Positions 19,249-50,037 are shown, numbered from the stretch's first letter. The stretch is 64,000 bases of DNA from a virus (IMGVR_UViG_3300009614_000107); one strand, 5' to 3'. The notes: a model not told the origin generated them from the sequence alone. Numbers and translations: made by a program.

Positions 19249-20409
19249 TCACTCCTCAAACTTGATTAGGAATTCTGGATTCATAATTTTGAAGCTAATC
19301 ATACCAGTCCTATTTGTGCCACCAACAAGAGCAAACTCTGGGTCAATTATGGTTTTTAATGGACGAATGACCATTCCCTCTTCCCACACATCAGAGTTGA
19401 GTGTACTCTTTCTGGTTGCCATATTGACTAGGAAGTCAACATTACCTGAGAGAGTGAACTTCTTGGAAATAACAGGAACCATAGGTATGCCCATTATTGT
19501 GAGCAGTTCCTTCATTTCCTCAAAGTCTAGGAATCTCTCGACATCCATATCATAGATACTATAGACTGAGTATTTCAATCCAATTAACTTGTATTTATTG
19601 CCCTGTATTGGGTGGCCACCAGCACTTCCGTGCATCTCCCCTTGGAGAGCAAGATGACGTTTTAAGGCACGTAATTTTTTTTCGATATCGAGTTGGTTTG
19701 TGGCAACCCAGAAGAGGTTTCTATCTGAGAGCTTGAGATCTAGGTTTCGAGAGCAGACACCATACTCTTCATTCTTATTGAGATAGGAAGTACAGGGTTG
19801 ACCATCAATCTTCTCAGTTGCATAACATAGAGTACCTTTGTATTTCTCCAAGATTTCTGGACAAGCCTGAACACGAACTTCATCTGTCTTGGGAATATAA
19901 TCTGGGAAGGTTCCTTTTGCATCAATTGAGATACTTTCTATGATCTCATATTTGGTAACACCAAGGATTTCTGTGAGATCGGTTCCCTCATCTATAATGT
20001 GATTATTATAAAAATCCTCAAGTTCCTTGAGTGTTGGGATTTTTGACCAGTCATTCTTTACTAATTTTGGCTTGAAGTATGTGCTAAGAGGAAGTAATAG
20101 ACCTTGGGAAATTTGACCACGAAGCCTAATTGTCCTTATCCTAAGTCCTTCTACACCTGTGTCAGGATGCTTCTTGAAGGAGTACTTGCGAAGGAACTCG
20201 ACCTCTGGAGTCATTGGAATAAAGCTATCTATCTCAAAATAAATAGCAAGATCACCAACTTGGAACTCATTTTTTTGGACTACAACCTTCCATCCAAGAA
20301 CGTGCGCTATCTCCAAGTTATCAGAATTCTGACAGGGTTCGATAGCAACAATCTTCTGGACAGAAGCAAGTTTCCTAGTTGTATCGTTTATTGTTGGGAC
20401 TAGTCTCAT
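19249..20409 (-). CDS. ATP-dependent RNA ligase, DRB0094 (Rnl5) family
   Basis: N-terminal RKLASVQKI...LGWKVVV...GDLAIYFEIDSFIP; motifs TEKIDG, QGE, YD, EGMV, SFKI. Confidence 0.88.
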   Translation of the reverse strand: MRLVPTINDTTRKLASVQKIVAIEPCQNSDNLEIAHVLGWKVVVQKNEFQVGDLAIYFEIDSFIPMTPEVEFLRKYSFKKHPDTGVEGLRIRTIRLRGQISQGLLLPLSTYFKPKLVKNDWSKIPTLKELEDFYNNHIIDEGTDLTEILGVTKYEIIESISIDAKGTFPDYIPKTDEVRVQACPEILEKYKGTLCYATEKIDGQPCTSYLNKNEEYGVCSRNLDLKLSDRNLFWVATNQLDIEKKLRALKRHLALQGEMHGSAGGHPIQGNKYKLIGLKYSVYSIYDMDVERFLDFEEMKELLTIMGIPMVPVISKKFTLSGNVDFLVNMATRKSTLNSDVWEEGMVIRPLKTIIDPEFALVGGTNRTGMISFKIMNPEFLIKFEE

Positions 20410-20455
20410 ATCACATCTGTGTAATATGATTTGTTTTTATTTATAAATATTATGA

Positions 20456-21376
20456 TTAGGGGGTTTCTTGCTCTTGCTCAGGTTCTAGGTACTCACCACG
20501 CCTTGCATTTGCTATTAGGCTTAGGACGAGCGCAATGATACCACAAGCAACTGCCACCCAAACATAGAACATATCTGCATCCTTGCCAGATGCCCCAGTT
20601 GCTCCTATTGCACCAGTCGCTCCTGTTGCGCCTGTATCTCCTTTAGGACCAAGGGGTCCTATTGCACCTGTGTTTCCCTGTGGTCCTTGTGGGCCTTGGG
20701 GTCCCATTCCACCCGTAGCACCTGTAGCACCGTTTGTTCCAGCAGTTCCCTGTGTACCCTTGAGGTTTGCAATGAGTGTCCATCCTGCTGTTACCTTAGT
20801 ATAGACATCACCAGTCGATTTGTTGAGGAAGTAATCACCAATTGCACCTGTGGCATTGGTTGGGACAACTGTTCCAGATGTCCACTTAGTGCCTGGAGCA
20901 CCTTTTACATATGCAAAGAAGTCTGGAGGAAGATTTAGCCACCAGTCTGATGGAAGTGCTGTAGCATCTGTAATTGTAAAGGTAGCGGTTTTGGTTGATT
21001 GTGTGCCATCATTTACATCCTCTAATATGACCTTAATCGTGTGATCTCCAGGTGTCTGATACTTGGTCATTGAACTAGGAACAACAAATGAATAATCTAA
21101 TGAACGAATATATCCACTCGTTGTATTGCCTAGAAAAATGGAGTTTGTAATCAAATCATCATCATAGAAGATATAATAATGAAGATTTTGTGTTAAAGAT
21201 ACCTTGGGTGTAACACGAATCATCAAAAATATTGATGATGTTGATGTGCCTGAAGTGGGTGTGACATTAATCGTCCAGTTTGTTGGGACGGTTGCGAATG
21301 CTCCCATCATTGGAAGGGAGAGCATAACGATCAATAAGCCAATCACGGCTATGTTCTTTCTCAAGTCTTTCACCAT
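20456..21376 (-). CDS. membrane-anchored collagen-like surface protein
   Basis: Signal peptide, 20 uninterrupted G-X-Y triplets (20579..20758), C-terminal TM followed by RR. Confidence 0.8.
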   Translation of the reverse strand: MVKDLRKNIAVIGLLIVMLSLPMMGAFATVPTNWTINVTPTSGTSTSSIFLMIRVTPKVSLTQNLHYYIFYDDDLITNSIFLGNTTSGYIRSLDYSFVVPSSMTKYQTPGDHTIKVILEDVNDGTQSTKTATFTITDATALPSDWWLNLPPDFFAYVKGAPGTKWTSGTVVPTNATGAIGDYFLNKSTGDVYTKVTAGWTLIANLKGTQGTAGTNGATGATGGMGPQGPQGPQGNTGAIGPLGPKGDTGATGATGAIGATGASGKDADMFYVWVAVACGIIALVLSLIANARRGEYLEPEQEQETP

Positions 21377-21421
21377 ATGACTGTTAGATAATACGATATA
21401 TTGTATTTATAAATATTGTGG

Positions 21422-21961
21422 TCACTGAACCATCGTGACCCTAATGCCACGTTCCTTGATAATTTCCTTGAACAGCTTATAAATATCTGCCTGGTACTGT
21501 TCATCATTTGGACGTTTGGGGTCATCGTAGAGTGCCTTGATTTCACAGAAATAGATTTCATTGTATGTGAGCATTTTGTCTAAGTATCCTGAGATCAGTG
21601 AATCAATTGTGTGAAGTTCAGCGTCTGTCACAACTCCTTTGCGGTTCATATATGTCATATAAACAAGGGAGTCCCAGATTGAACGGTCACAGAGTTCAAA
21701 GACATATGGTGGATGCTTTTCTTTTGCTATTATGGCAAGCACCTTCTCAGTGTATTCCTCATCACGAATCTGCTCGTGAACCATCCACTCCTGAGCTTTG
21801 AATGATTGAAGAGGGTGTGGACACATTCTAGCCTTCTCGATAACCACCCTGTTTGGAATACGTGAATCACTTAACATTCGTGAAACACGGTTGACAGTTG
21901 TTGTCTTTCCTGAACCCTGAGCTCCAATCCAAGCCAGTTTGATAAGTTCGGTTTCTGACAT
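21422..21961 (-). CDS. P-loop nucleotide/nucleoside kinase-like protein (AAA_28/NadR-like)
   Basis: GAQGSGKTT Walker A, CDRSIWD, DD.KR lid. Confidence 0.75.
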   Translation of the reverse strand: MSETELIKLAWIGAQGSGKTTTVNRVSRMLSDSRIPNRVVIEKARMCPHPLQSFKAQEWMVHEQIRDEEYTEKVLAIIAKEKHPPYVFELCDRSIWDSLVYMTYMNRKGVVTDAELHTIDSLISGYLDKMLTYNEIYFCEIKALYDDPKRPNDEQYQADIYKLFKEIIKERGIRVTMVQ

Positions 21962-22446
21962 TATCCATCTATCTCCTCTATTATTACAGTATCTGCTCCA
22001 CTATCATAGTCTGTGACTTTAAATGTCTTTCCCCCATAGTGGAATGGGGTATAATAGTGAACATAGAGTGGAAATGCGTACACATATGCTCCAATACCAG
22101 TTGTACAAGCAAATGTGAATGTAGGTGTTGCCATACCGTTCCATTCAGAGGATCCTGTAAATGTTAATGTTATTGAACCAGAAACTACAAACGCATCTCC
22201 ATTTCTAAGATTACGTATAACAGGTTCATTTGACACAGTTGTTGTGGCATTAACCTGTGGTGAATGATAAAAAGTAAGAGTAATTATTCCTGCAAATACT
22301 GCAATAAGTGAAAGTGCAAGAATTACGTTGTATGTTCTACTTGGCATTCTTACCACTTTCCAATTGCTCCACCACCGCCTGAGTGTCCACCACCGAATCC
22401 CCCACCACCGCCTGAGTGACCGCCTGAACTGGAACCACCTGACCAA
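21961..22446 (-). CDS. single-TM exported protein (true start probably downstream of the ORF-track start)
   Basis: TM followed by a beta-rich domain; first about 30 codons overlap the Gly-rich tail of the TPM gene. Confidence 0.5.
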   Translation of the reverse strand: MVRWFQFRRSLRRWWGIRWWTLRRWWSNWKVVRMPSRTYNVILALSLIAVFAGIITLTFYHSPQVNATTTVSNEPVIRNLRNGDAFVVSGSITLTFTGSSEWNGMATPTFTFACTTGIGAYVYAFPLYVHYYTPFHYGGKTFKVTDYDSGADTVIIEEIDG

Positions 22447-26604: not shown

Positions 26605-28161
26605 TTAACTCTCTTCCTCTTGAACAATTTCTGGGATGGGGTTGTACTTCTCGATAGCCTCAAGTACCTTGCTCCTGTCCTCTTCGAACCTCTTTATGAA
26701 GTCGAAGATGCGGTCACTGAAGCCACCGATGATGGCAACGTTTGGCTCTGTGTCTGGAATCTGAACTGTGCCGTAGCCAGCTAGGTCGAAGAGATAGAGT
26801 CTTACCTTTGGTTGCATTGTCTTGTACTTTAGGAACCACTTATAGAGGCTGTCCTGACTTCCAAATGCACCATATCTGCCATCGGTATCCCATAGCTGTT
26901 CATCAGTGAAGATCATTACACGATCTGTGAGGAGTCTGTTGTCCACTAGGTACTTGAATACTAGATAACCATTTGTTGCAGAGTCAGTGTCTGACATCAG
27001 TATCTTCTTGGCATCTCCTAGGATTGACTTGCCTGATATGTTGACGGTCATAAACCTAGTTCCGAATGCAGAGGCAACGGCAGCTTCACAGAAGCCATTT
27101 GCCATAGCACCCATCACAGCACCAATTTCACGCCTCTCTATCTTTGATCTTTCAGATACTGGTGACTGCATTGAACCTGAGTTGTCTACAGACACAAGTG
27201 TCCTTCCACCAAGGTTAGGGATATTGCTGACTGAGATTGACATTGCGGTTTCAAGAGCATTGAGTATTTTCTTACTGTCGAATGGATCAATGTTCTCTCC
27301 TGCATCTTCGATCATCTTGTAGGCAGAGAGGAATCTATATGGGAACTGCTTGCTATTAGCAACTGCCTTTGGATTAGTCAGGTGCTTTAGGACAGAATCT
27401 AGATCTGCCTTAGCCTGTGCAATGTTTCTGAGGTTACGTAGTTTGGCCATATAGCCCATCTTAGGAATGACTTCGTTCCAGGCTTCCTTGTTGTTGCCCT
27501 TGGCTGAGATTACGGTTTCCCAAGTCTCAGGGACAGCTAGAGTGCCAGTCCTAATCTTCTTGAAGAGTTCTGACTTCTCTGGAGTGTCTGGTACAGGATG
27601 TGTTAGTCTTAGAACGTCTGAGAGCTTGACGGACTTATCATCCATCTTGTATTTTCCAAAGTCATATTCACCGAAGTTATGGAAGGAATCGGCTATGCCT
27701 AACTTGAACTGATTAGGAAGGCTTGCTTTACCATTGCTACCAATCTCACCGTTCTTGTTGATGAAGCAAGAAAGCATCTCTGAGAGTTCGTCTGCTCTCT
27801 TGATTATGAATGGCATCCACCAACGGACATACTTTTTTGCCTCTGGATTAGTAAGTCCCTCAACTGTGAGGAACATTGGGGCAGAGCGCAAGTACATCTC
27901 ATTGCGGAGATATGAGGCTAGTTTGAATATGAATTCAGGATCCTGCTTTGAAACCTGAGCAATAAGTGCCTTGATATCTTCTGTCTCGGTTGCTTTGTCA
28001 CCGTAGAATTTTGGCTCACCAACGAGCCAAGTTGCAGCACGTAGATAGAGTTCGTTCTTGGCATTTGTCTTGAATGCCACACCACCCTCATAATTTGAGG
28101 TTATGTCTGGGTGGGATTCTACCTTTTTCCCTATCGAAGGGTTTCCGTTGAATTTCGGCAT
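26605..28161 (-). CDS. rsr: Ro60/TROVE domain ribonucleoprotein with vWA domain
   Basis: NYEGGVAF, DPEFIFKLASYLR.EMYLRSAP, RADEL, KY...VKLSDVLRLTHP, TWETVIS, MGYMAKLRNLRN, QFPYRF, vWA VDNSGSM and IFTD; start moved to MPKFNG after an AGGAGA RBS. Confidence 0.92.
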   Translation of the reverse strand: MPKFNGNPSIGKKVESHPDITSNYEGGVAFKTNAKNELYLRAATWLVGEPKFYGDKATETEDIKALIAQVSKQDPEFIFKLASYLRNEMYLRSAPMFLTVEGLTNPEAKKYVRWWMPFIIKRADELSEMLSCFINKNGEIGSNGKASLPNQFKLGIADSFHNFGEYDFGKYKMDDKSVKLSDVLRLTHPVPDTPEKSELFKKIRTGTLAVPETWETVISAKGNNKEAWNEVIPKMGYMAKLRNLRNIAQAKADLDSVLKHLTNPKAVANSKQFPYRFLSAYKMIEDAGENIDPFDSKKILNALETAMSISVSNIPNLGGRTLVSVDNSGSMQSPVSERSKIERREIGAVMGAMANGFCEAAVASAFGTRFMTVNISGKSILGDAKKILMSDTDSATNGYLVFKYLVDNRLLTDRVMIFTDEQLWDTDGRYGAFGSQDSLYKWFLKYKTMQPKVRLYLFDLAGYGTVQIPDTEPNVAIIGGFSDRIFDFIKRFEEDRSKVLEAIEKYNPIPEIVQEEES

Positions 28162-28220
28162 TTTCTTGTTTCTCCTTTCTGGTCTGAAAATGTCAATTCC
28201 AATCAACCCCTTTTGGGATT

Positions 28221-28288
28221 GAAGAGGAATGAGTCGCATCGGGAATTTCGGTTTTGGTGGTGAAGTATCCCGATACTACGCCATCTTC
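28221..28288 (-). ncRNA. Y-RNA-like element Y1 (minimal; in the ro60 leader)
   Basis: GAAGA-TGGCGTA-GTATCGGGA-TACTT...TCCCGATGC-GACTCATTCC-TCTTC; TATA at 28312-28319. Confidence 0.75.
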
Positions 28289-28336
28289 GGTATCTAAAAT
28301 AACAGTGCGCCTTTATAAATATTTGTATTATAAAAT

Positions 28337-28468
28337 TAGGCAAGAATTGTCATATGGGGAACATATACTGTGCAAATCTACACTACATCTGCCTTTCGGC
28401 AGACGCTGGGAGTCCCACCCAGTCTAGTACCTCCAGAGGGAAGTATCCCACATACTACGCTATGCCTA
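28337..28468 (-). ncRNA. Y RNA Y2 (YrlA-like permuted tRNA mimic)
   Basis: Terminal stem TAGGCA/TGCCTA; TAGCGTA; T-like arm CTGGG-TGGGACT-CCCAG; acceptor-like CGTCTGCC-GAAA-GGCAGATG; then TAGTGTAG D-like arm; own TATA at 28489. Confidence 0.85.
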
Positions 28469-28511
28469 TATTACAAATACAATATGTCTTTATAAATATT
28501 TGGAGAAAAGT

Positions 28512-28634
28512 GAGAAGGGATAACCGAGTCGAGAGTGACCTTACCATCGGTCAGTCACACCCTTTCGGGTGCGATTGGATTCGAACCAATATACACATCA
28601 TTGTAGTGAAGTATCTCGACTCCACGCCATTCTC
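28512..28634 (-). ncRNA. Y RNA Y3 (YrlA-like permuted tRNA mimic)
   Basis: GAGTCGAGA/TCTCGACTC stem; T arm ATTGG-TTCGAAT-CCAAT; 7-bp CGCACCC-GAAA-GGGTGTG; D arm TGACC-GATGGTAA-GGTCA; own TATA at 28658. Confidence 0.9.
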
Positions 28635-28668
28635 TGGTTGTAAAAACACAGAACGAATTTATAAATAT

Positions 28669-29144
28669 TTAGACTTTGACGAAACTAGATTTCTTAGATC
28701 CCCTAACGTTTTGTTGTGTTTGTGCTTCTTCTCTCTTGAAATATATTCTAATATTTGAACCATTTATCACAAGACAAGCACCTTCACCGTCTAAGCAAGC
28801 AATTGTTGAGTGTGGAAGAAGCGTAGTAAAAACAGATTCAAAAGTAGCCCTATCTGTTGTTTTTAACGTGGCATTATAAACATCCACGTGTGGAAATTCT
28901 ATTCCATTAACAAGTTCTCCTTGAATGTATGTTGCGTCAATCATATTGTTTATTCCTTCTTATTGACTGGATAGGTTTTGTATCCTACCATTTTGAGCAC
29001 ATCTGGCTCTTGTATGTTAAAAAGTTTCTTTAGGAATTTAGAAACTGACTCTTCAACACCAAGAGTAAAATATAAGGGATAAACAAAAACCTTTATCAAA
29101 AAGGTATAGAAGTTATCCCATTTTTTGCTATATGAGAATGTCAT
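28669..29144 (-). other. two small hypothetical ORFs (28669..28944; 28950..29144)
   Basis: ORF track, TATA at about 29185. Confidence 0.45.
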
Positions 29145-29203
29145 ATTGATACGCCTTTCTGTTAAATTAAATATATGCTTGTATTTATAAATATTATGAG
29201 AAT

Positions 29204-29797
29204 TTAGAAGGTAAGTGGATTCCTAGCTGTATTTGACGTGCAGATAGTGAAACTTCCGTCTATGAGCTTTTGCAGGATTGTTTCCTTGTCTAGACTGTCA
29301 ACATCCATTTCCATCCAGCTTGCTCGAAGCTGATAGGGCATATGTAGATCGTCTGAGGCATAGAAGTTCATACCCTGGAACTCGTCAAGATTATTTGATA
29401 TCTGAAGGATACCAGAATTGAACATCTCAAGACCGTTAATTGTTGGGAAGTTTCTCATTAGTACATCAATACTGGCAGATGTTAGATCTGACAGTCTGGG
29501 ATGGGATATCCATTTAACTCTACAGGACTCCCATATTTCGATAGGCATTCCTGTCGTTTTTGTTGGTTCTAATCCTAGGAGATGAGTCATACCATATGCA
29601 CTGTACTCGATTCCCTTGAACAGTAGGTATTTCTTCCTAAGTCCTTTCAGGTGAAGAGGGTGGGGAATAGTTAGAGTGTCGTGATCTGTTATGGCCACAA
29701 CTTGATATTTGGTTGTTAGAAGTTTGAGTAGGCTGTGAATATCCAGCTCGCCATCACTCATATTTGAGTGATTATGTAAACTAAGTGCTATGTGCAT
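29204..29797 (-). CDS. PHP-family metal-dependent phosphoesterase
   Basis: LHNHSNMSDG, AITDHD, GIEY, SHP, ASDDLH. Confidence 0.85.
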   Translation of the reverse strand: MHIALSLHNHSNMSDGELDIHSLLKLLTTKYQVVAITDHDTLTIPHPLHLKGLRKKYLLFKGIEYSAYGMTHLLGLEPTKTTGMPIEIWESCRVKWISHPRLSDLTSASIDVLMRNFPTINGLEMFNSGILQISNNLDEFQGMNFYASDDLHMPYQLRASWMEMDVDSLDKETILQKLIDGSFTICTSNTARNPLTF

Positions 29798-29847
29798 TAT
29801 TGATCATTACCAAAACTGTTGATGTCATTTATAAATATTGTGAATAT

Positions 29848-29950
29848 AGAGAGGAATAGTCCCATCGAGAGTTAGGAGGGAGTCGCACCCTCCAGATACC
29901 CCTTTCGGAATATCTCAAGGACAGAAGTATCTCGGTAGTACGCCATCTCT
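29848..29950 (-). ncRNA. Y-RNA-like element Y4
   Basis: AGAGA-TGGCGTA-CTACCGAGA-TACTT...GAAA hairpin, T-like arm GGAGGG-TGCGACT-CCCTCC...TCTCGATGG-GACTATTCC-TCTCT; TATA at 29972. Confidence 0.8.
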
Positions 29951-30189
29951 GCATAAGGAATACATTCTGAATTTATAAATATTAACTAAGCAATAACTTC
30001 CTTCACAGTAACTATATCATAATAGTTTGGTTTCACAACCTTTTCATTTCCGTGTGCTTTTCCAATATGAATAAAAAGTTTTCCAGATAGCTTGCTTCTA
30101 CACGCAGATACCAAAAGTGGTGAACCTGTATTATTCTGAATTTCAATTTCTTCAGACATAAACATCCACAGAATAAAATATGTTTGTAT

Positions 30190-30372
30190 TTATAAATATT
30201 TGGTAAGTACCTCCATTGCCCCTCCACAACGTGGGCATCCGTTTTTAACGTTAGAGTGGGAAACTCCCCAGTGCCACTGTGGGCCTTCTCTTCCGTTCCA
30301 TCTGTACCTACGGTTCCTACCTGTCCCGTAGTCATATCTAAACACACGTGTACCGCATTTGGTACACCTCAT
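30190..30372 (-). CDS. Zn-ribbon protein
   Basis: MRCTKCG...CPRCGG; start moved to the in-frame ATG at 30372. Confidence 0.6.
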   Translation of the reverse strand: MRCTKCGTRVFRYDYGTGRNRRYRWNGREGPQWHWGVSHSNVKNGCPRCGGAMEVLTKYL

Positions 30373-30465
30373 CAATATCTGTCTGGTTTGCAACTTATGT
30401 TCACACTAGCTCATAGCCAGAATCCGTGAACTTGGGACTCTAGCTTATGAACTAGTCATTCGTTG

Positions 30466-30540
30466 CCTTCACTCCTCTTCACCATACAGCACATCACTTT
30501 ACTATACTTGACTTCACAATACTATACTCCACTATACAGC
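30466..30540. repeat. 5-nt periodic tract (ACNNN)n, 15 units
   Basis: ccttc actcc tcttc accat acagc acatc acttt actat acttg acttc acaat actat actcc actat acagc. Confidence 0.85.
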
Positions 30541-30588
30541 ATCTGTAAAGTCTACCCCATTAGAATTTATAAAGATTTGTGAGAAGTC

Positions 30589-30667
30589 GGTGTGCATAGA
30601 GAACCAATGACCTACCCAGTGAGGCGAGAGCCACCCTATGCACACCTTTTTGAGTGAACGGCTCTCG
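30589..30667 (-). ncRNA. H-type pseudoknot RNA PK1
   Basis: S1 CGAGAGCC/GGCTCTCG interleaved with S2 GGTGTGCATAG/CTATGCACACC; own TATA at 30691. Confidence 0.7.
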
Positions 30668-30700
30668 TGTAAGAAACACACGTGTGTACGTTTATAAATA

Positions 30701-30823
30701 TTATGGATTACTAGTTCCTTTCTTGAGGCTTCTTCGATAAAGCCAAATAAGGAACCAGGCTGTAACAACAGCAGAAACATAGAAGGCTAGAACAACAGCC
30801 TCATCCCAAGACAATTCTATCAC
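30701..30823 (-). CDS. 40-aa single-TM peptide (not in ORF track)
   Basis: GTG start after an AAGG element; hand translation MIELSWDEAVVLAFYVSAVVTAWFLIWLYRRSLKKGTSNP. Confidence 0.55.
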   Translation of the reverse strand: MIELSWDEAVVLAFYVSAVVTAWFLIWLYRRSLKKGTSNP

Positions 30824-30833
30824 CTTGAATCTT

Positions 30834-30935
30834 GGTACGTGAGGTGGGAACTACTTTGTCTCTCTGTCGGGGCTTACTGTCGATGGGAACGGGATTCCTC
30901 ACGTACCCTTGACGATGCCTCTGCCGTTCCCAATC
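30834..30935 (-). ncRNA. H-type pseudoknot RNA PK2
   Basis: S1 TGGGAACGG/CCGTTCCCA interleaved with S2 GGTACGTGAGG/CCTCACGTACC; own TATA at 30953. Confidence 0.7.
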
Positions 30936-31003
30936 TGTACACGGTGTACCAGTTTATAAATTTTTGGGAATAGATGGATATTTTTCTGTATAAATTAAAA
31001 ATT

Positions 31004-31087: not shown

Positions 31088-31132
31088 CCACAAGAATAGA
31101 CTGTGAATTTATAAATATTTGGGTTAAAAATT

Positions 31133-31211: not shown

Positions 31212-31243
31212 GATCCTAAGAACACAATACGAATTTATAAATG

Positions 31244-36801: not shown

Positions 36802-36847
36802 TACTGTTCAGATAAGAAAGCGTGTTTGTGTTTATAAATATTGTGAA

Positions 36848-41489: not shown

Positions 41490-42932
41490 TTACAACTCCT
41501 TGGCTCTCTTGAGAAGATATTCTCTGGTGTTCTTCTCAGGATCCTCAATGACTTCTTCTGCTAGAGTTTTGAGGACTCTTCCGACTTCTGGTCCTCTGAA
41601 GCCAAGTTCCATTATATCACCGCCACGGATTTTGAGTGAATGCACACCTGTTGGTTCCTTCTTGGCTCGAACTTCTTTGAGTGCTTCATTGAACTCTTTA
41701 CCAAATACTCTTGTTCTAGGAGTTCCTGAACCCTTAATATCAGCTATGTTGAAGGCAACCAGATCGTCAACAAGTTCTTTGTTACCAAGTCTGTTGATGT
41801 ATCGTCTGACATCTTTTGGTTTTATCTTCTTTGAATAGGAGAAGAAATCCATATGGTGTCCTACCATCTCCTTGAGGTATTCCTTCTCAGGTGTCGAGAG
41901 TTTGAGGTTATTTGCTATTTCCTCTGCACGTTTCTCTCCGAGCTCTGCGTGTTCTTGGCTTGGCTTCTCAATATCGTGTATGAGTCCAACAAGTCTGAGG
42001 ATTGGACGTTCCTTTGGAAGTGCTTCCATTGTTTTAATGCTGTGAGTGAGCACATCGTATTTGTGGTATTTCTTTTCCTGTGGCATACCGTCAAGTCTGG
42101 TGAGTCCTGGGATTACTGTTTCCATAAGCCCAGTGTCAACCATCATTCTGACTGATTTTCCAGCTCCGTCTGTTTCAAGTGATTTGAGTAGTTCGTCACG
42201 AACTCTCTCTGCTGGAATTTTGGTAAGCAGTTTGTTTTCATCTTTGATTGCCTGAACTGTCCTTGGATCAGGCTTTGCTCCAAATCGACCAGCGAATCTC
42301 ACAAAGCGCATCATACGGAGTGGATCTTCTCTGAAGCGTTTGTGTGGATCACCTACAGCACGAAGGACGTTATTCTGGATATCCTTCTGGCCACCGAATG
42401 GGTCAATGAATTTATCGTGAATTGGATCGTAGGCTATGGCGTTTATTGTAAAGTCTCTTCTTGAGAGGTCTTTCACGACATCTGTTTCCCATTTAACTGA
42501 GCCTGGGTGTCGAGAATCTTCATACTTGCCTTCTGAGCGATATGTGGTTATCTCTATTGGAGAACCATTGAAGAGGACTGTAATTGTTCCAAACTCTTCT
42601 CCAGTGGGAATTGCTTTATATCCCTTGCTCTGAAAAAGTTTAGTTACCTCTGATGGGGTAGCATTTGTGGTTATGTCTACATCGTGAATGGGATTGCCCA
42701 TTATGAAATCTCTGGTAGCCCCACCGACAACATAACCTTCATATCCAGCATCGTGGAGAATCTGTATTACATCTCTTCCTATGAGCATTTCGGCTGGTAG
42801 ACGGGAGGTGAAGTATTTTGGTATGGTGGCGAGAGGTCGCCTTGTCTCAGTGCCTCTAACGTAGGAATGTACTCGAATACGGTTTCCATTTGGAGTTGTC
42901 CTAACGTGGGATGAGACACGGTGCTTCAGCAC
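41490..42932 (-). CDS. cca: class II CCA tRNA nucleotidyltransferase with HD domain and N-terminal HxVxxHxR tag
   Basis: YVVGGATRD, DVDITT, DLSRRDFTINAIA, EDPLRMMR, ERVRDEL, H...IHDIEKP. Confidence 0.92.
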   Translation of the reverse strand: MLKHRVSSHVRTTPNGNRIRVHSYVRGTETRRPLATIPKYFTSRLPAEMLIGRDVIQILHDAGYEGYVVGGATRDFIMGNPIHDVDITTNATPSEVTKLFQSKGYKAIPTGEEFGTITVLFNGSPIEITTYRSEGKYEDSRHPGSVKWETDVVKDLSRRDFTINAIAYDPIHDKFIDPFGGQKDIQNNVLRAVGDPHKRFREDPLRMMRFVRFAGRFGAKPDPRTVQAIKDENKLLTKIPAERVRDELLKSLETDGAGKSVRMMVDTGLMETVIPGLTRLDGMPQEKKYHKYDVLTHSIKTMEALPKERPILRLVGLIHDIEKPSQEHAELGEKRAEEIANNLKLSTPEKEYLKEMVGHHMDFFSYSKKIKPKDVRRYINRLGNKELVDDLVAFNIADIKGSGTPRTRVFGKEFNEALKEVRAKKEPTGVHSLKIRGGDIMELGFRGPEVGRVLKTLAEEVIEDPEKNTREYLLKRAKEL

Positions 42933-46349: not shown

Positions 46350-46423
46350 TGGTGCTCTGTCTGGGAATTGAACCCAGCCTATCTGGTTGAGAGCCAGATG
46401 TCCTTCCGACAGACTCACAGAGC
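46350..46423 (-). tRNA. tRNA-Glu(CTC)
   Basis: Cloverleaf GCTCTGT...CT-CTC-AA...TTCAATT...ACAGAGC-ACCA. Confidence 0.92.
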
Positions 46424-46428
46424 TTGAA

Positions 46429-46502
46429 TGGCGGTCAGGACGGGATTCGAACCCGTAACGCCTGGTTGACAGCCAAGCAGTTTACCATTAGCCTACCAGA
46501 CC
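46429..46502 (-). tRNA. tRNA-Asp(GTC)
   Basis: Cloverleaf, loop CT-GTC-AA, G73-CCA; U.U mismatch in the acceptor stem. Confidence 0.9.
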
Positions 46503-46740
46503 ACTGCATCTAAGGAGATGTGTATGTGTTTATAAATTTTGTGATTTGTGATGAGCAGTCATTTCTTTATAGAGTCTCATATCATCTGTTTTTACTCTAT
46601 GTTTGCAGGACGCACCAAAGAAACATACACCATCACTCTCATTCATACATAATTTTCCACCATCTGTTTTTCTGCACTCAAAGACCATCATATGCTTTCA
46701 TACGCTTCAGGTATTGGGGTGCATATAAAACTTGTGAAAA

Positions 46741-46876
46741 TGGTGGCGAGTAAGGGATTCGAACCCTTGTTGGAACTCTACAGTGCCAGGTTTCTCCCGA
46801 AGCGGTCTTGAGCCTCACCTTTAGCCGACCCTCATCGTCCTAAGCCTGGTGCCTTCGACCACTCAGCAAACTCGCC
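46741..46876 (-). tRNA. tRNA-Leu(TAG) with 47-nt intron (46792..46838)
   Basis: Long variable arm, loop CT-TAG-G then intron then A; relaxed BHB. Confidence 0.88.
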
Positions 46877-46882
46877 TCATTT

Positions 46883-46957
46883 TGGTGGACGCAGACGGGA
46901 GTTGAACCCGTAATATCGCTTTGCAAGAGCGACAGTTTACCATTAGCTTACTGGCCC
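46883..46957 (-). tRNA. tRNA-Ala(TGC)
   Basis: Loop CT-TGC-AA, G3.U70; one extra nucleotide in the 3' acceptor strand. Confidence 0.85.
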
Positions 46958-46959
46958 AA

Positions 46960-47034
46960 TGGCGCACTCATATCAGAGTTGCACTGATCCACGAAGGTTC
47001 ACAGCCTCCTATGCTTCTGCTACATCAATGGTGC
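46960..47034 (-). tRNA. tRNA-His(GTG), atypical
   Basis: Loop CT-GTG-AA; TGC T-loop, bulged acceptor stem, no encoded G-1, G73. Confidence 0.75.
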
Positions 47035-47071
47035 AGAGGATATTATTCTTTTATCTTATTTATAAATAGTT

Positions 47072-47148
47072 TGGTCGGAATGGTGGGACTCGAACCCAAC
47101 TCCAGAGGTTCTACGGACCCCGATGCTAAACCCTTACACCACATCCCG
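47072..47148 (-). tRNA. tRNA-Tyr(GTA)
   Basis: C1-G72, short variable loop (archaeal/eukaryal type), loop CC-GTA-GA. Confidence 0.85.
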
Positions 47149-47149
47149 A

Positions 47150-47227
47150 TGGAGAGGACGGAGAGGTTTGCACTCTCGGTTTTACCCTTTTGCAGAGGGT
47201 TGCCTTTGACTACTCAGCCACATCCTC
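47150..47227 (-). tRNA. tRNA-Cys(GCA)
   Basis: Loop CT-GCA-AA, U73-CCA, TGC T-loop. Confidence 0.88.
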
Positions 47228-47230
47228 AAT

Positions 47231-47305
47231 TGGCGCAGAGGGAAGGATTCGGACCTTCACGATCTGCCTCAACAGGGCAGTGTTCTGCCATTAGACTACC
47301 TCTGC
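47231..47305 (-). tRNA. tRNA-Asn(GTT)
   Basis: Loop CT-GTT-GA, G73-CCA. Confidence 0.9.
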
Positions 47306-47339
47306 TCCAAGGTAGAGATAGTGTATTCGTTTATAAATT

Positions 47340-47735
47340 TTATGACTCAGATACACCTTTTTCAACGTCTTTTTTTAATTGCTCAAGTTCAAAATTCATA
47401 ATCTGTTTAGTAGTTGGTTGTAGTCTGTTGAGGCTTGCACTTAGACAACTGCCAAGGACAGATATTATATCTGCTGCCTCTAATTCAGTCATTTCTTTTA
47501 TATCAAAACCAGCATCAAAATCCAGACCATTTCTGCAAACACAAAGTCTAATTCTGTTAAACTTCTCGTGTACATCTTTTGGATCCTTTGGTTTTATGAT
47601 TATGCCAGAGCAGACATATTCATTTCCTATGCCATCCATACTTCCGCTTTCAGCAATGAAAAATATGTCACATTCCTTGCATTTTTCACATATCATCTGT
47701 TTTGGATACTCTTCTTTGGGCATATTATCATACAA
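47340..47735 (-). CDS. Cys-containing hypothetical protein inside the tRNA region
   Basis: 131 aa ORF between TATA motifs. Confidence 0.55.
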   Translation of the reverse strand: MYDNMPKEEYPKQMICEKCKECDIFFIAESGSMDGIGNEYVCSGIIIKPKDPKDVHEKFNRIRLCVCRNGLDFDAGFDIKEMTELEAADIISVLGSCLSASLNRLQPTTKQIMNFELEQLKKDVEKGVSES

Positions 47736-47769
47736 ATGAAGATCAGAGAAAAATTATAAATATTTAGAA

Positions 47770-47853
47770 TGGCGCAGAGGAGGGGAGTTGAACCCCCACG
47801 GTACAGGACCACTAGTTTTCAAGACTAGCGCATTGCCATTCTGCCACCTCTGC
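47770..47853 (-). tRNA. tRNA-Ser(TGA)
   Basis: Long variable arm, loop CT-TGA-AA, G73-CCA. Confidence 0.92.
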
Positions 47854-47856
47854 ACT

Positions 47857-47931
47857 TGGCGCAAAGGGAAGGACTTGAACCCTCAAACCCACCTTCGCAG
47901 GGTGGCGTTTTATCCATTAGACTACCTTTGC
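47857..47931 (-). tRNA. tRNA-Arg(GCG)
   Basis: Loop CT-GCG-AA, CCA encoded. Confidence 0.9.
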
Positions 47932-47933
47932 AC

Positions 47934-48007
47934 TGGTGTCCTAAGAGAGAATTGCACTCCCCCCTCAACCTCTTCAGGGTCGGATGCTCCTGCTACACCA
48001 TTAGGAC
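47934..48007 (-). tRNA. tRNA-Phe(GAA)
   Basis: Loop CT-GAA-GA, TGC T-loop. Confidence 0.88.
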
Positions 48008-48009
48008 TT

Positions 48010-48083
48010 TGGTGTCCATAGAACGAGTTGCACGTTCTCCCAATCTGTGTAAGAGACTGATGCTTCTGTTACACTATACGGAC
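48010..48083 (-). tRNA. tRNA-Val(TAC)
   Basis: Loop CT-TAC-AC, TGC T-loop. Confidence 0.88.
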
Positions 48084-48085
48084 AT

Positions 48086-48159
48086 TGGTGCGACTGCTGG
48101 GTATCGAACCCAGATTTTCGCCTTGGCAAGGCAGGGGTCTACCATTAGCCTACAGTCGC
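48086..48159 (-). tRNA. tRNA-Gly(GCC)
   Basis: Loop TT-GCC-AA, A73-CCA. Confidence 0.88.
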
Positions 48160-48161
48160 TC

Positions 48162-48318
48162 TGGTGCGTCTGTCGGGGATCGAACCCGAATCTTCAGCTT
48201 TCCTCCCCTGTGTTATTTCGACACTTTTCCCATACCGTCTGAGACTATTTGACGGATTTTGAGTCCACTGTTTGGGCAGGGATGGAGGGCTGGAGTGCTA
48301 CCATTACACTACAGACGC
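48162..48318 (-). tRNA. tRNA-Gly(TCC) with 83-nt intron (48200..48282)
   Basis: BHB central helix CCTC/GAGG with 3-nt bulges; intron at position 37/38. Confidence 0.85.
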
Positions 48319-48322
48319 TCTT

Positions 48323-48476
48323 TGGTGCTCTCTTTGGGATTCGAACCCAAGTTGATGGGTATCTTCGAGATGCCGAAACGCCCCACCAGGTTTTACTCGT
48401 CTTAGCGCAATGTTCCTCACGGATACATTCATCTCTTGAAAGCCCACCGTCCTTGACCTAGCTGAACGAAGAGAGC
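48323..48476 (-). tRNA. tRNA-Glu(TTC) with 76-nt intron (48361..48436)
   Basis: Strict BHB: CTTT/GAAG central helix, GAGATG/CATCTC outer helix. Confidence 0.9.
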
Positions 48477-48478
48477 TT

Positions 48479-48548
48479 TAGGACGGTAATCTAAAGGAAG
48501 TGCATAGTGCTGTGCAGTGTGCGGTTTTCCTTTGTGACTACCGTCCTA
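48479..48548 (-). ncRNA. 70-nt rod-like hairpin heading the tRNA operon
   Basis: TAGGACGGTA/TACCGTCCTA and AAAGGAA/TTCCTTT stems; between the TATA (48570) and tRNA-Glu. Confidence 0.55.
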
Positions 48549-48813
48549 TACGTAAAAAAACAGTATGCGTTTATAAATTTTATGCCGTCTTAGGTTCTAG
48601 CTTTTCCTTATCTTTCATCATATCTCTGATTTCTCTGAGATATGAGTTCATTGTACTGACCCTAATTAAGAGCCAGACTGATGCTCCAACAAATATTACA
48701 ACTGCTGGATATACCCAAGAGGCAAGAAGCCAGAATATAATTGTATCCGAGAACGCCAACGTTTTGTCGCCATACAGATAATATATAGTGTATTTATAAA
48801 GATTGTTGAATTT

Positions 48814-48887
48814 TGGTGGGATCGGGAAGAGTTGAACTTCCCTCTCGTGGTTCCAAGCCACGAAGCCTACCGATAGCCCACGATCCC
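48814..48887 (-). tRNA. tRNA-Pro(TGG)
   Basis: Loop CT-TGG-AA, CCA encoded. Confidence 0.92.
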
Positions 48888-48922
48888 ATTTATGGGTAGC
48901 TTCAATTTTTGTTCCGCTACCA

Positions 48923-48977
48923 CCTTTACTGCACTACACTTTACAGCACTTAACTTTACTATACTTCACTCATCTAC
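48923..48977. repeat. 5-nt periodic tract (ACNNN)n, about 11 units
   Basis: ccttt actgc actac acttt acagc actta acttt actat acttc actca tctac. Confidence 0.8.
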
Positions 48978-49037
48978 TTTAACCCAGCTTCAAAGTGCTG
49001 AGTATATTAGATTCTAAGCTAGGATTTATAAATATTG

Positions 49038-49541
49038 TTATTGAAAATCTCTTAGATGTGGATGATCATCTTTTTTATCCAATTTTTTAATCACAGCTTC
49101 AATATTTTTGCCGTTTGGCATTGCTAGATCTCCATCACCTAAAACAATTAGATGATCACCACCACCAAGGGCATTCATTATTAGGCTTAATCTTGGTGTT
49201 CTAATAAATTTGTGGTATAGAACTACTGGGAAGATATCGGACATCTTCTCAATTTTCTCAGGTATTTGTGGATAAGTGCCATCTTTATAATATTTTTCAA
49301 ATGAAACATTACCAACTTTGGTTGGAAGCATTTTGATTAGCCAATATTTCTTTGTCTCTTCTTTGACATAAGGAACTAATTGAAAATCAGCCATACCCAG
49401 AGTTTCACAACGGACTTGGAAGGCTTTGGCATCAATGCCTTTTATAATATATATGCTATCGTCTGGAAGAACAACATCAATGTGAAGATTTGCACACTGA
49501 TCCTCAAACTCCTTCAACTTCTTTTCTGACACAGATAGCAT
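49038..49541 (-). CDS. hypothetical protein
   Basis: 167 aa ORF after a TATA motif. Confidence 0.6.
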   Translation of the reverse strand: MLSVSEKKLKEFEDQCANLHIDVVLPDDSIYIIKGIDAKAFQVRCETLGMADFQLVPYVKEETKKYWLIKMLPTKVGNVSFEKYYKDGTYPQIPEKIEKMSDIFPVVLYHKFIRTPRLSLIMNALGGGDHLIVLGDGDLAMPNGKNIEAVIKKLDKKDDHPHLRDFQ

Positions 49542-49598
49542 ATGATCATCTATAACAAATAGAAATATGTGTATTTATAAATATTTGGACAGGATTGG

Positions 49599-49835
49599 CT
49601 ACTCTTTACGATTTGGGAATTCATACATATGGATCATATATATCCAGACTAAACCATCCTCAAACAGTGAGAAACCGATTGCAATCATAAGACCAGCGAA
49701 GCCTGGGGTGTGTGTGTTATTTTCCCATATATTTAGTCCAGTGAACCATAGACCGAAAGTCATAAAGTCTAGTCCTACTGCAAGGAGCAAGGCTAGATAT
49801 GTCTGGGAAACCCTGCTAAGTGTTTCTTTATACAT
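49599..49835 (-). CDS. small 2-TM protein
   Basis: 78 aa ORF. Confidence 0.5.
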   Translation of the reverse strand: MYKETLSRVSQTYLALLLAVGLDFMTFGLWFTGLNIWENNTHTPGFAGLMIAIGFSLFEDGLVWIYMIHMYEFPNRKE

Positions 49836-49879
49836 CTGTTGTCACTGTAAGAGAAGTAGTGTGTACGTTTATAAATATT

Positions 49880-49957
49880 TGGTAGAGTCAGAGAGATTCG
49901 GACTCTCGTCCCTGGGTTCAAAGCCCAGTGTCCTTGTCCAGGCTAAACGATGACTCT
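49880..49957 (-). tRNA. tRNA-Gln(TTG)
   Basis: Loop CT-TTG-AA; A1-U72 (archaeal GatDE identity element). Confidence 0.92.
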
Positions 49958-49961
49958 TCAT

Positions 49962-50037
49962 TGGTACTCCCACACAGGTTCGAACTGAGGTTTATGCCTT
50001 CAGGGGGCATCGTCCTTGACCACTGAACGATGGGAGT
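49962..50037 (-). tRNA. tRNA-Gln(CTG)
   Basis: Loop CC-CTG-AA; A1-U72. Confidence 0.85.

What the first reader, a model, noticed from the sequence alone, without database searches (positions are those of the whole stretch)
19249..50037. Self-contained tRNA supply and repair kit around Ro60
Seen: 18 tRNAs, a CCA enzyme with an HD domain, two different ATP-dependent ligases (DRB0094-type 19249-20409; Rnl2/3-type 35599-36801), a P-loop kinase-like protein (21422-21961), PHP (29204-29797) and HD (37255-37800) phosphoesterases, and Ro60 with Y RNAs. Established: ATP-dependent RNA ligases need 3'-OH and 5'-P ends, so a kinase and a phosphoesterase are needed to heal nuclease-cut tRNA (T4 Pnk/Rnl1 model). 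Bacterial Rsr and Y RNAs are often linked to RtcB-type repair. Inference: this element replaces the RtcB pairing with a heal-and-seal route to counter host tRNA-cleaving defences. No RtcB gene was seen in the window.
Basis: partly seen in the sequence, partly recalled or inferred. Interest (0 to 1): 0.72.

Follow-up and report, generated by a model that had tools for sequence, protein, structure and literature searches.

The report
Archaeal virus tRNA and RNA-maintenance gene region
A large virus-like element of peat archaea carries its own tRNAs, a CCA-adding enzyme, two RNA ligases and a Ro60 protein with six Y RNAs, much as giant phages do, but the enzyme that would make it a complete "heal-and-seal" tRNA repair kit is not there.

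Summary
There are 17 solid tRNA genes plus one doubtful tRNA-His. There is a class II CCA enzyme, an Rnl5 (DRB0094/NgrRnl-type) ligase and a second, rare RNA ligase with an Rnl1/Rnl3-like fold. There is a YhaM-type HD protein, a small PHP protein, and Ro60 with six Y RNAs confirmed by covariation and linkage. The window has no RtcB.

The heal-and-seal reading is only partly supported:
- The P-loop protein is a small-molecule kinase (NadR-RNK/dNK/TMPK fold, Z 16 against about 9 for polynucleotide kinases).
- It sits in a LemA-TPM transcription unit, and that unit is missing from the closest relative, which keeps all the other RNA genes in the same order.
- Ro60-bearing viruses rarely carry these ligases (6 of 49 records).

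New points found here:
- Three tRNAs carry archaeal bulge-helix-bulge introns, so the set depends on a splicing endonuclease that the window does not encode.
- All 18 tRNAs encode CCA.
- The genes have separate promoters.

The region is an archaeal-virus version of the RNA-repair and tRNA repertoire already described for jumbo phages. Other notes of this scan cover the Y RNAs, the CCA enzyme and the promoters of this same element.

The parts
46350..50037 (-). tRNA gene array: 17 solid tRNAs plus a doubtful tRNA-His at 46960-47034, in several short units that each follow a TTTATAAA-type box. All have an encoded CCA end.
48323..48476 (-). tRNA-Glu(UUC) with a 76-nt intron at 37/38 in a canonical bulge-helix-bulge motif (central helix CUUU/GAAG, bulges CAA and AUA)
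   Evidence: pairing read by hand from the sequence
48162..48318 (-). Intron-bearing tRNA (81-nt intron). ARAGORN calls it Arg(CCG). The BHB register (CCUC/GAGG helix, bulges CAU and AAA) and the Gly-like acceptor stem make Gly(UCC) more likely.
   Evidence: inference from the sequence
46741..46876 (-). Intron-bearing tRNA-Leu (47-nt intron, relaxed BHB). ARAGORN calls UAA; the BHB register gives UAG with G37.
41490..42932 (-). Class II (bacterial/eukaryal-type) CCA-adding enzyme with a C-terminal HD-motif region and a 50-residue N-terminal extension. It is the third gene of a unit starting at the box near 44046.
35599..36801 (-). Ligase 2: ATP-dependent RNA ligase of a rare clade (9 relatives found). 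It has an N-terminal segment, a nucleotidyltransferase domain and an all-helical C-terminal domain. The fold is tied between T4 Rnl1, archaeal Rnl3 and the Trl1 ligase domain. It has its own promoter box at 36839.
37255..37800 (-). Stand-alone HD phosphohydrolase resembling the HD domain of the 3'-5' exoribonuclease YhaM, and common in phages (phrog_5889). It lies in a unit with an 87-aa ORF and a membrane-anchored 136-aa ORF.
29204..29797 (-). Compact PHP-family metal phosphoesterase (short PHP plus PHP_C type). Its N-terminus weakly resembles RNase AM/RNM and pAp phosphatase. It has its own promoter, and a Y RNA gene lies directly upstream here and in the relative.
28218..31214 (-). Six Y RNA genes (31130-31214, 31001-31090, 29845-29953, 28509-28637, 28334-28471, 28218-28291). 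They share a closing stem, the motifs UGGCGUA / GACAAUUCC and GAUACUUC, and a C-GAAA-G hairpin. Some carry T-arm-like modules.
26605..28206 (-). Ro60 (TROVE plus vWA). The last Y RNA lies in its 5' leader. The best solved relative is Ro60 of Thermus phage phiLo.
   Evidence: PMC12135203
19249..20409 (-). Ligase 1: Rnl5-type (DraRnl/NgrRnl) nick-sealing RNA ligase with an N-terminal OB module, motif I TEKIDG, and its own promoter box at 20448
21422..21961 (-). P-loop kinase of the NadR-RNK/dNK/TMPK kind, last gene of the unit LemA (23308-23910), TPM (22350-23129), ORF161, kinase. Probably not part of the RNA set.

Best explanation
The 31-kb stretch is the RNA-maintenance and translation-support part of the accessory genome of a roughly 197-kb archaeal virus-like element. 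It holds independent, separately promoted genes.

Proposed roles:
- It supplies 17-18 tRNAs. Three of them must first be spliced by an archaeal-type endonuclease, presumably the host's.
- A class II CCA enzyme rebuilds damaged 3' ends. Because every tRNA gene already encodes CCA, repair rather than maturation is the likely role.
- Two ATP-dependent RNA ligases reseal RNA breaks that already carry 5'-phosphate and 3'-OH ends. Rnl5 acts on nicks held in a duplex. The Rnl1/Rnl3-like enzyme acts on single-stranded or loop breaks.
- Ro60 with six Y RNAs forms RNPs that bind aberrant RNAs and probably recruit an exonuclease.
- The HD (YhaM-like) and PHP proteins are candidate RNA-end trimming or dephosphorylating enzymes.

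Shown here: the families, the intact catalytic motifs, the Y RNA structure and its linkage to Ro60, the introns, and the synteny in a relative. Inferred: all substrates, and the purpose, namely keeping translation running against host or rival RNases. It is not a self-contained heal-and-seal pathway, because no polynucleotide 5'-kinase is present in the window.
For: Families and motifs.
Ligase 2 fold: Z 16.9 to T4 Rnl1 (233 residues aligned, rmsd 3.7), 16.4 to MthRnl, 15.4 to the Trl1 ligase domain, 13.6 to Rnl2, and 11.5 or less to DNA ligases.
Y RNAs: 12 of 18 pairs show compensatory change. The model hits directly upstream of Ro60 in L001, L002 and L003, in 46 of 80 further Ro60 loci, and four times in the close relative.
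tRNAs: BHB introns and encoded CCA on all tRNAs.
Synteny: CCA, ligase 2, PHP, Ro60 and Rnl5 are 79-88% identical in a 45.6-kb relative, while many intervening genes differ.
Literature: the same repertoire of tRNAs, RNA ligases and CCA enzyme, with occasional TROVE proteins, is described for jumbo phages as a counter to RNase attack (PMC7824862, section 3.4.9). A phage Ro60 with its own Y RNAs binds host PNPase (PMC12135203).
Against: No substrate has been tested. No RNA data were available. The genes have separate promoters and are interleaved with unrelated genes: two DNA methylases, LemA/TPM, a collagen-like protein and many unknowns. Ro60 and ligases rarely co-occur in other viral records. 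Rnl5 enzymes have no established physiological substrate (PMC5397189). [quoted passage not shown]
Confidence: 0.5

Rival explanations
1. One reading: a complete virus-encoded heal-and-seal pathway. The kinase phosphorylates 5'-OH ends, the PHP, HD or CCA-HD domains remove 2',3'-cyclic phosphate, a ligase seals, and the Ro60-Y RNP acts as scaffold. This replaces RtcB and counters tRNA-cleaving defences.
For: Two intact RNA ligases, three phosphoesterase-type domains and one P-loop kinase lie within 31 kb of the tRNAs and Ro60. HD domains can act as 2',3'-phosphoesterases (E. coli CCA enzyme and Runella HD-Pnk, from my own knowledge). The window has no RtcB.
Against: The kinase fold and profile match NadR-RNK, dNK and TMPK far better than polynucleotide kinases (Z 16 against 8-9). 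It sits in a LemA-TPM unit and is absent from the closest relative, which keeps all the other RNA genes. No HAD or 2H healing domain was found. Ro60 is not generally linked to ligases. About two thirds of the element was not readable.
Confidence: 0.1
2. The ligases serve the element's own RNA processing rather than repair. They would join the exon halves of its three BHB-intron tRNAs after end healing by host enzymes, or circularise excised introns, Y RNAs or other small RNAs, as Rnl3 enzymes do in vitro.
For: There are three intron-bearing tRNAs. Ligase 2 is nearest by sequence profile to archaeal Rnl3 (5d1o 8e-7), and MthRnl circularises single-stranded RNA (PMC4797309).
Against: Archaeal tRNA splicing uses RtcB directly on 2',3'>P / 5'-OH ends (established knowledge; PMC4090602 reviews the pathway). 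No kinase or Tpt1 was found in the window. No tRNAs were found in the 30.7 kb read of the relative's 45.6-kb contig, which still keeps both ligases; its tRNAs may lie in the unread part.
Confidence: 0.12
3. There is no common pathway, only co-resident accessory genes with separate jobs. Ro60-Y RNA redirects a host exonuclease such as the exosome. Rnl5 seals RNA-containing nicks in duplex nucleic acid during replication or repair. The kinase feeds nucleotide or NAD salvage. HD and PHP are nucleotide or nucleic-acid hydrolases unrelated to tRNA.
For: The genes have separate promoters and are interleaved with unrelated genes. Co-occurrence across viruses is weak. DraRnl loss sensitises Deinococcus to radiation, and Rnl5 substrates are duplex nicks (PMC5397189, PMC1807946). 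Ro60 of phage phiLo forms a complex with host PNPase (PMC12135203).
Against: The same five or six RNA genes are retained in order in the relative while their neighbours turn over. They sit beside the tRNA array and the CCA enzyme. The same combination recurs in jumbo phages (PMC7824862).
Confidence: 0.22

Closest known systems
RNA-repair and tRNA repertoire of jumbo phages (Iyer, Anantharaman, Krishnan, Burroughs, Aravind 2021, PMC7824862, section 3.4.9)
   Same: Many tRNA genes, more than one ATP-dependent RNA ligase, a CCA-adding enzyme and, in a minority, a TROVE/Ro60 protein with a tRNA-like RNA partner. These are read as counter-measures to RNase effectors.
   Different: The host domain is archaeal (TATA-type boxes, BHB-intron tRNAs, and TFB and MCM genes in relatives). 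The ligases are Rnl5 plus a rare Rnl1/Rnl3-like clade instead of Rnl1 and Rnl2. No Pnk, HAD or 2H healing enzymes and no RlaP were found in the window. There are six Y RNAs.
T4 Pnkp + Rnl1 repair of PrrC-cleaved tRNA-Lys
   Same: A viral ATP-dependent RNA ligase whose nucleotidyltransferase fold matches Rnl1 (Z 16.9).
   Different: There is no polynucleotide kinase/3'-phosphatase. The only P-loop protein is of the dNK/NadR-RNK kind. Sequence identity to Rnl1 is about 14-16%.
Rnl5 ligases DraRnl (DRB0094) and NgrRnl (PDB 5cot)
   Same: N-terminal OB module plus nucleotidyltransferase domain. PDB match 1.6e-46 over residues 11-351.
   Different: It scores below the TIGR02306 equivalog cut-off (140.4 against 151.15 bits). 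It is encoded by a virus-like element (phrog_968).
Bacterial and phage Ro60-Y RNA RNPs (D. radiodurans Rsr/Yrn1; Salmonella rsr-yrlBA-rtcBA; Thermus phage phiLo Ro60 with Yrl1 and Yrl2, PMC12135203; Y RNAs in more than 250 bacteria and phages, PMC4201824)
   Same: A TROVE plus vWA protein with Y RNA genes directly adjacent on the same strand, a closing stem with a conserved internal loop, tRNA-like modules, and a CGAA(A) hairpin.
   Different: No Rfam Y RNA family matches, even at E<=1. There are six paralogues. The setting is archaeal, where there is no PNPase. There is no RtcB next to it.
Asgard-archaeal Nidhogg viruses (bioRxiv 10.1101/2021.07.29.454249) and haloarchaeal virus HGTV-1 (PMC13532342)
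   Same: Archaeal viruses reported with Ro60 plus an RNA ligase (Nidhogg), or with many tRNA genes, one of them intron-bearing (HGTV-1: 34 tRNAs, 143.9 kb).
   Different: Here all of these features occur together in one element of about 197 kb, with Y RNAs identified and a class II CCA enzyme. Kinship to those viruses was not tested.

Membership tests
T4-type heal-and-seal RNA repair (Pnkp + ATP-dependent ligase) | ATP-dependent RNA ligase with intact motifs I, III, IV and V | tested here: met
   Ligase 2 has KVDGTN, FSELYG, EGMVAK and GKIK. Ligase 1 has TEKIDG and EEGMVIR. RNA ligase folds outrank DNA ligases.
T4-type heal-and-seal RNA repair (Pnkp + ATP-dependent ligase) | Polynucleotide 5'-hydroxyl kinase | tested here: not met
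   The only Walker-A ORF models at pLDDT 96. It matches NadR RNK at Z 16.3, dNK at 16.2 and TMPK at 14.5, against Pnkp1 9.3, T4 Pnk 8.9 and CthPnkp 8.1. Its profile hits TMPK, dGK and NadR. It is absent from the closest relative. Only the 64-kb window could be searched.
T4-type heal-and-seal RNA repair (Pnkp + ATP-dependent ligase) | 2',3'-cyclic phosphodiesterase / 3'-phosphatase acting on RNA ends | tested here: inconclusive
   No HAD (DxDxT) or 2H candidate was found. The HD protein, the PHP protein and the HD region of the CCA enzyme have intact metal-binding motifs, but their substrates are unknown.
Rnl5 (DraRnl/NgrRnl) nick-sealing RNA ligases | N-terminal OB module fused to the nucleotidyltransferase domain, with no C-terminal domain | tested here: met
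   PF21189 1.6e-35 at residues 14-108 and PF09414 at 196-354. NgrRnl match 1.6e-46 over residues 11-351 of 386. The TIGR02306 score is below its equivalog cut-off.
Rnl3 (Pab1020/MthRnl) archaeal RNA ligases | Sequence membership (TIGR01209) and the Rnl3 domain layout | tested here: inconclusive
   TIGR01209 scores 21.3 bits against a cut-off of 136.9. The family profile hits 3qwu at 1.5e-7 and 5d1o at 8e-7. Structural Z is 16.4 to MthRnl, tied with 16.9 to T4 Rnl1. Dimerisation was not tested.
Ro60-Y RNA ribonucleoprotein | TROVE ring protein with a vWA domain | tested here: met
   PF05731 2e-30 and PF25045 1.5e-6. PDB 9l5y/9kop 1e-30, Rsr 6.6e-5, Xenopus Ro60 1.4e-4.
Ro60-Y RNA ribonucleoprotein | Adjacent small RNA genes whose 5' and 3' ends form a conserved stem (the Ro-binding helix) | tested here: met
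   Six units; 18 consensus pairs, 12 with compensatory change. The model hits next to Ro60 on the same strand in L001-L003, in 46 of 80 further loci and in L168. Rfam's own Y RNA families do not match. Binding to Ro60 cannot be tested here.
Class II CCA-adding enzyme | Pol-beta head domain with GGxxRD, DxD, RRD and EDxxR motifs, plus an RNA-binding body | tested here: met
   PF01743 4.8e-39 and PF12627 1.3e-16. GGATRD, DVDITT, RRDFTINA and EDPLRMMR were read. PRK13299 scores 267.9 bits, just under its 290 cut-off.
Archaeal BHB-intron tRNA genes | Intron at 37/38 flanked by two 3-nt bulges separated by a 4-bp helix | tested here: met
   tRNA-Glu(UUC) has the canonical motif. The other two fit with one mismatch or a shifted anticodon call. 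All were read by hand from the sequences. Cleavage was not tested.

The most novel reading that the evidence does not exclude
In a domain that lacks PNPase, this element builds its own Ro60-based RNA-processing machine. The six Y RNAs, graded from tRNA-like to minimal, would tether Ro60 to element-encoded end-processing enzymes: the PHP protein, whose gene keeps a Y RNA gene directly upstream in both relatives, the YhaM-type HD protein, or the rare Rnl1/Rnl3-like ligase. That would give a viral RNP that trims and reseals damaged or intron-derived tRNA ends without RtcB.
Probability: 0.1. Interest if true: 0.75.

Novelty: new variant of a known kind. Interest (0 to 1): 0.45.

Why it matters
Virus-encoded tRNA-supply and RNA-repair repertoires are well described for jumbo phages but hardly at all for archaeal viruses. 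This element shows the same strategy assembled from different parts: an Rnl5 ligase, a rare RNA ligase clade with only nine detectable relatives, a bacterial-type CCA enzyme, and Ro60 with six Y RNAs that Rfam misses.

It also carries tRNAs that depend on archaeal splicing. This gives a concrete system for two questions. What do Ro60-Y RNPs do where there is no PNPase? Can ATP-dependent ligases work on tRNA breaks in archaea?

The Y RNA covariance model built here finds partners next to Ro60 in 46 of the 80 metagenomic Ro60 loci searched, so it could improve Y RNA annotation. The negative result also matters: the 'kinase' should not be annotated as a polynucleotide kinase.

Tried and rejected
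- No near match in 50,697 phage records, and no exact match in IMG/VR.
- No whole genome is held for the window, and the window's own contig could not be fetched. RtcB, Pnk/Clp1, EndA and Tpt1 therefore could not be sought in the other roughly 133 kb.
- Loci from the look-up of encoding contigs cannot be used as handles for whole-record searches.
- Rfam at E<=1 gave no Y RNA family.
- Ligase 2 alone gave no PDB sequence hit. A family profile was needed.
- Pfam and PHROGs gave nothing for about 25 small or unknown ORFs in the region. ORF136, between the HD gene and ligase 2, is membrane-anchored and not a kinase.
- Context look-ups for kinase homologues hit only contigs of about 1 kb.
- Sequencing runs: only DNA holders from peat and wetland metagenomes were listed; no RNA holder was listed.
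- Complex prediction was not used, because no direct protein-protein contact is claimed.
- The 19th ARAGORN call ('Gly' with a 16-nt intron, inside ORF 49038-49541, 31.5% GC) was rejected as false.
- The ARAGORN anticodon calls Arg(CCG) and Leu(UAA) were set aside in favour of Gly(UCC) and Leu(UAG), on the BHB register read by hand.

Full report
**Setting.** The window is about 39% G+C with nearly all genes on the minus strand. It has no near match in phage records or IMG/VR. Its Ro60 protein is on record from one contig of 197,232 bp. Peat and wetland metagenomes hold the DNA.

An archaeal virus-like nature is supported here in three ways:
- Reiterated TTTATAAA-type boxes stand in front of genes, tRNAs and small RNAs.
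- Three tRNA genes carry bulge-helix-bulge introns.
- Relatives that carry the same Ro60 clade also carry TFIIB/TFB, MCM and PTH2 genes.

Earlier notes of this scan say the same about the element. I used them as leads only.

**Checking the observation.** ARAGORN finds 14 tRNAs by default, and Rfam finds 16, two of them abnormally long. With introns allowed there are 17. At a relaxed threshold a tRNA-His(GUG)-like gene appears at 46960-47034 with three acceptor-stem mismatches. Rfam does not score it even at E<=1. All 18 end in a genomically encoded CCA.

The listed enzymes are all present:
- Rnl5-type ligase at 19249-20409: PF21189 OB module plus PF09414, NgrRnl 1.6e-46.
- Second ligase at 35599-36801: PF09414 3.3e-10 with all nucleotidyltransferase motifs intact.
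- Class II CCA enzyme at 41490-42932 with the GGATRD, DVD, RRD and EDPLR motifs. An H..HD..HH..D region scores just under Pfam's HD cut-off.
- HD protein at 37255-37800.
- PHP protein at 29204-29797. Its Pfam score is weak, but all its metal ligands are present.
- AAA_28 P-loop protein at 21422-21961.
- Ro60 with TROVE and vWA domains.
- No RtcB in the window.

**The Y RNAs are real.** Rfam reports no Y RNA family. Six minus-strand units between 28218 and 31214, each behind its own promoter box, align over their ends. RNAalifold gives a closing stem of 18 pairs, 12 of which show compensatory changes among the six paralogues.

A covariance model built from them gives these hits:
- Directly upstream of the Ro60 gene, on the same strand, in three independent relatives whose Ro60 is only 52-63% identical (L001, L002, L003).
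- In 46 of 80 further metagenomic Ro60 loci, often several per locus.
- Four times in the closest relative, including one directly upstream of the PHP gene, as in the window.

All six units carry a C-GAAA-G hairpin, the motif used to find the Y-like RNAs of Thermus phage phiLo (PMC12135203). That phage's Ro60 is also the best solved match to this Ro60 (1e-30).

**The ligases.** Ligase 1 belongs with DraRnl and NgrRnl, enzymes that seal 3'-OH/5'-PO4 nicks in duplexes whose 3'-OH strand is RNA (PMC4408790, PMC1807946). Their physiological role is uncharted (PMC5397189).

Ligase 2 is rare: nine relatives among 5.8 billion clustered proteins. A profile of the family reaches archaeal Rnl3-type structures (3qwu 1.5e-7, MthRnl 8e-7). 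The model has pLDDT 84. Its structural alignments are:

| Target | Z | Note |
|---|---|---|
| T4 Rnl1 | 16.9 | 233 residues aligned, rmsd 3.7 |
| MthRnl (Rnl3) | 16.4 | |
| Fungal Trl1 ligase domain | 15.4 | 279 residues aligned |
| Rnl2 | 13.6 | |
| DNA ligases | 11.5 or less | |

Ligase 2 is therefore an RNA ligase with an all-helical C-terminal domain, of the kind seen in ligases that act on tRNA or single-stranded RNA. Assignment to Rnl1 or Rnl3 stays open, so 'Rnl2/3-type' is only roughly right.

**The kinase is the weak link.** The P-loop protein models at pLDDT 96. An all-against-representatives structural search gives:

| Target | Z |
|---|---|
| NadR ribosylnicotinamide-kinase domain | 16.3 (rmsd 2.3) |
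| Deoxynucleoside kinases | 16.2, 15.9 |
| Thymidylate kinases | 14.5 |
| Pnkp1 | 9.3 |
| T4 Pnk | 8.9 |
| CthPnkp | 8.1 |

Further evidence points the same way:
- A profile of 46 family members matches thymidylate kinase (6.3e-9), deoxyguanosine kinase and NadR over full length, and no polynucleotide kinase.
- PHROGs calls it thymidylate kinase.
- It has no promoter box of its own. It is the last gene of a unit that begins with LemA and a TPM-domain protein.
- It is the only Walker-A ORF in the window.

**The closest relative.** A 45.6-kb contig was read over 30.7 kb. It keeps the following genes in the same order:

| Gene | Identity to window |
|---|---|
| CCA enzyme | 79% |
| Ligase 2 | 88% |
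| HD paralogue | 34% |
| PHP | 85% |
| Ro60 (with four Y RNAs) | 86% |
| Collagen-like gene | 43% |
| Rnl5 | 81% |
| Dam methylase | 84% |

The LemA-TPM-ORF161-kinase unit is missing from it. Many other intervening genes differ: HNH endonucleases, a radical-SAM enzyme, a signal-peptide peptidase, FeoA and LuxS. The RNA genes thus form a conserved backbone, and the kinase does not belong to it.

**Phosphoesterases.** The HD protein resembles the HD domain of the 3'-5' exoribonuclease YhaM (PDB 9o7t 4.4e-6). Its structural neighbours are OB+HD proteins at TM 0.85, and it belongs to a phage-common family. The PHP protein belongs to a short PHP plus PHP_C family. Its N-terminus weakly resembles RNase AM/RNM and pAp phosphatase. 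Either could trim or dephosphorylate RNA ends, but nothing here shows it. No HAD or 2H enzyme was found.

**Is Ro60 linked to ligases elsewhere?** Whole-record searches of 49 Ro60-bearing IMG/VR records gave PF09414 ligases in 6, RtcB in 1 and CCA enzymes in 6. Within 10 kb of 163 Ro60 genes:
- An Rnl5-like ligase occurs in 5 loci, representing three different elements. In one of these elements (loci L112, L113, L130) it lies immediately downstream of Ro60.
- A CCA enzyme occurs in 3 loci and a PHP homologue in 1.
- Ligase 2, HD and kinase homologues occur in none.
- RtcB lies near Ro60 in L036 and L157, with a weak hit in L025.

Ro60 with its Y RNAs therefore behaves as an independent module. 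The occasional Ro60-Rnl5 adjacency is a lead, not a rule.

**The introns change the picture.** tRNA-Glu(UUC) has a textbook hBHBh' motif at position 37/38. The other two fit relaxed versions. The BHB register suggests Gly(UCC) rather than ARAGORN's Arg(CCG), and Leu(UAG) rather than Leu(UAA) (hand analysis). These pre-tRNAs need the archaeal splicing endonuclease. That enzyme leaves 2',3'-cyclic phosphate and 5'-OH ends, which archaea join with RtcB (PMC4090602). The tRNA supply therefore depends on enzymes that the window does not encode.

Because all the tRNA genes encode CCA, the class II CCA enzyme is more likely a 3'-end repair enzyme than a maturation enzyme.

**Comparison with what is known.** The combination of many tRNAs, several RNA ligases, a CCA enzyme and sometimes a TROVE protein has been described and interpreted for jumbo phages (PMC7824862). 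Ro60 plus an RNA ligase has been noted in Asgard-archaeal viruses. An intron-bearing tRNA occurs among the 34 tRNA genes of haloarchaeal virus HGTV-1.

What is new here is the archaeal assembly of all these parts in one element, the rare ligase clade, the six Y RNAs that Rfam misses, and the absence of the usual healing enzymes.

**Verdict.** The region is best read as a conserved but loosely organised RNA-maintenance repertoire, not a self-contained heal-and-seal kit.

Noticed in passing
window 46960-47034 (-): A tRNA-His(GUG)-like gene starts at the predicted transcription start of its own promoter box and ends in CCA. Its acceptor stem pairs only if one 3'-strand A is bulged, as if one base were missing from the 5' strand. 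It may be a pseudogene or an unusual tRNA.
   Followed up: partly
window 48888-49030 (-) and 30400-30575 (-): Two promoter-proximal stretches share a purine-rich core of about 50 nt (AAGTATAGTAAAGT..GTGCTGTA..). One forms the 5' leader of tRNA-Pro; the other lies upstream of ORF 30033-30347. This may be a second small-RNA or leader family.
   Followed up: partly
window 48480-48560 (-): A long hairpin (arms GGACGGTAGTCACAAAGGAA / TTCCTTTAGATTACCGTCC) lies between a promoter box and the intron-bearing tRNA-Glu. Its function is unknown.
   Followed up: no
window 45217-46053 (-): A 278-aa ORF with no family hit carries DVD and SGGYH motifs reminiscent of archaeo-eukaryotic primase (PrimPol) motifs I and II. 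It sits between the tRNA array and the CCA unit.
   Followed up: no
window 33640-34254 (-): A 204-aa protein with no Pfam hit is a phage-common class I methyltransferase near Methyltransf_32/TRM13 by ESM-Atlas features and structure. It may be an RNA or tRNA methyltransferase.
   Followed up: partly
window 42783-42932 (-): The CCA enzyme has an N-terminal extension of about 50 residues (HRVSSHVR...VHSYVRG). The extension is conserved in the relative, although the gene caller there starts the gene after it. Another note of the scan reports the same tag on other proteins.
   Followed up: partly
L168 17013-17654: In the close relative, a Cys-rich HNH-type endonuclease gene is inserted directly upstream of the Rnl5 ligase, overlapping its start. 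It is absent from the window.
   Followed up: partly
L112 9718-13205 (also L113, L130): An unrelated, higher-GC element has the order Y RNA, Ro60, about 560 nt of spacer, Rnl5-like ligase (3e-81). This is a compact Ro60-Rnl5 neighbourhood worth a separate look.
   Followed up: partly
L036 / G033 (IMG/VR record of 193,979 bp): This viral record carries Ro60, a PF09414 ligase, a CCA enzyme and an RtcB whose match is split within a 712-aa open frame, which suggests an intein.
   Followed up: no
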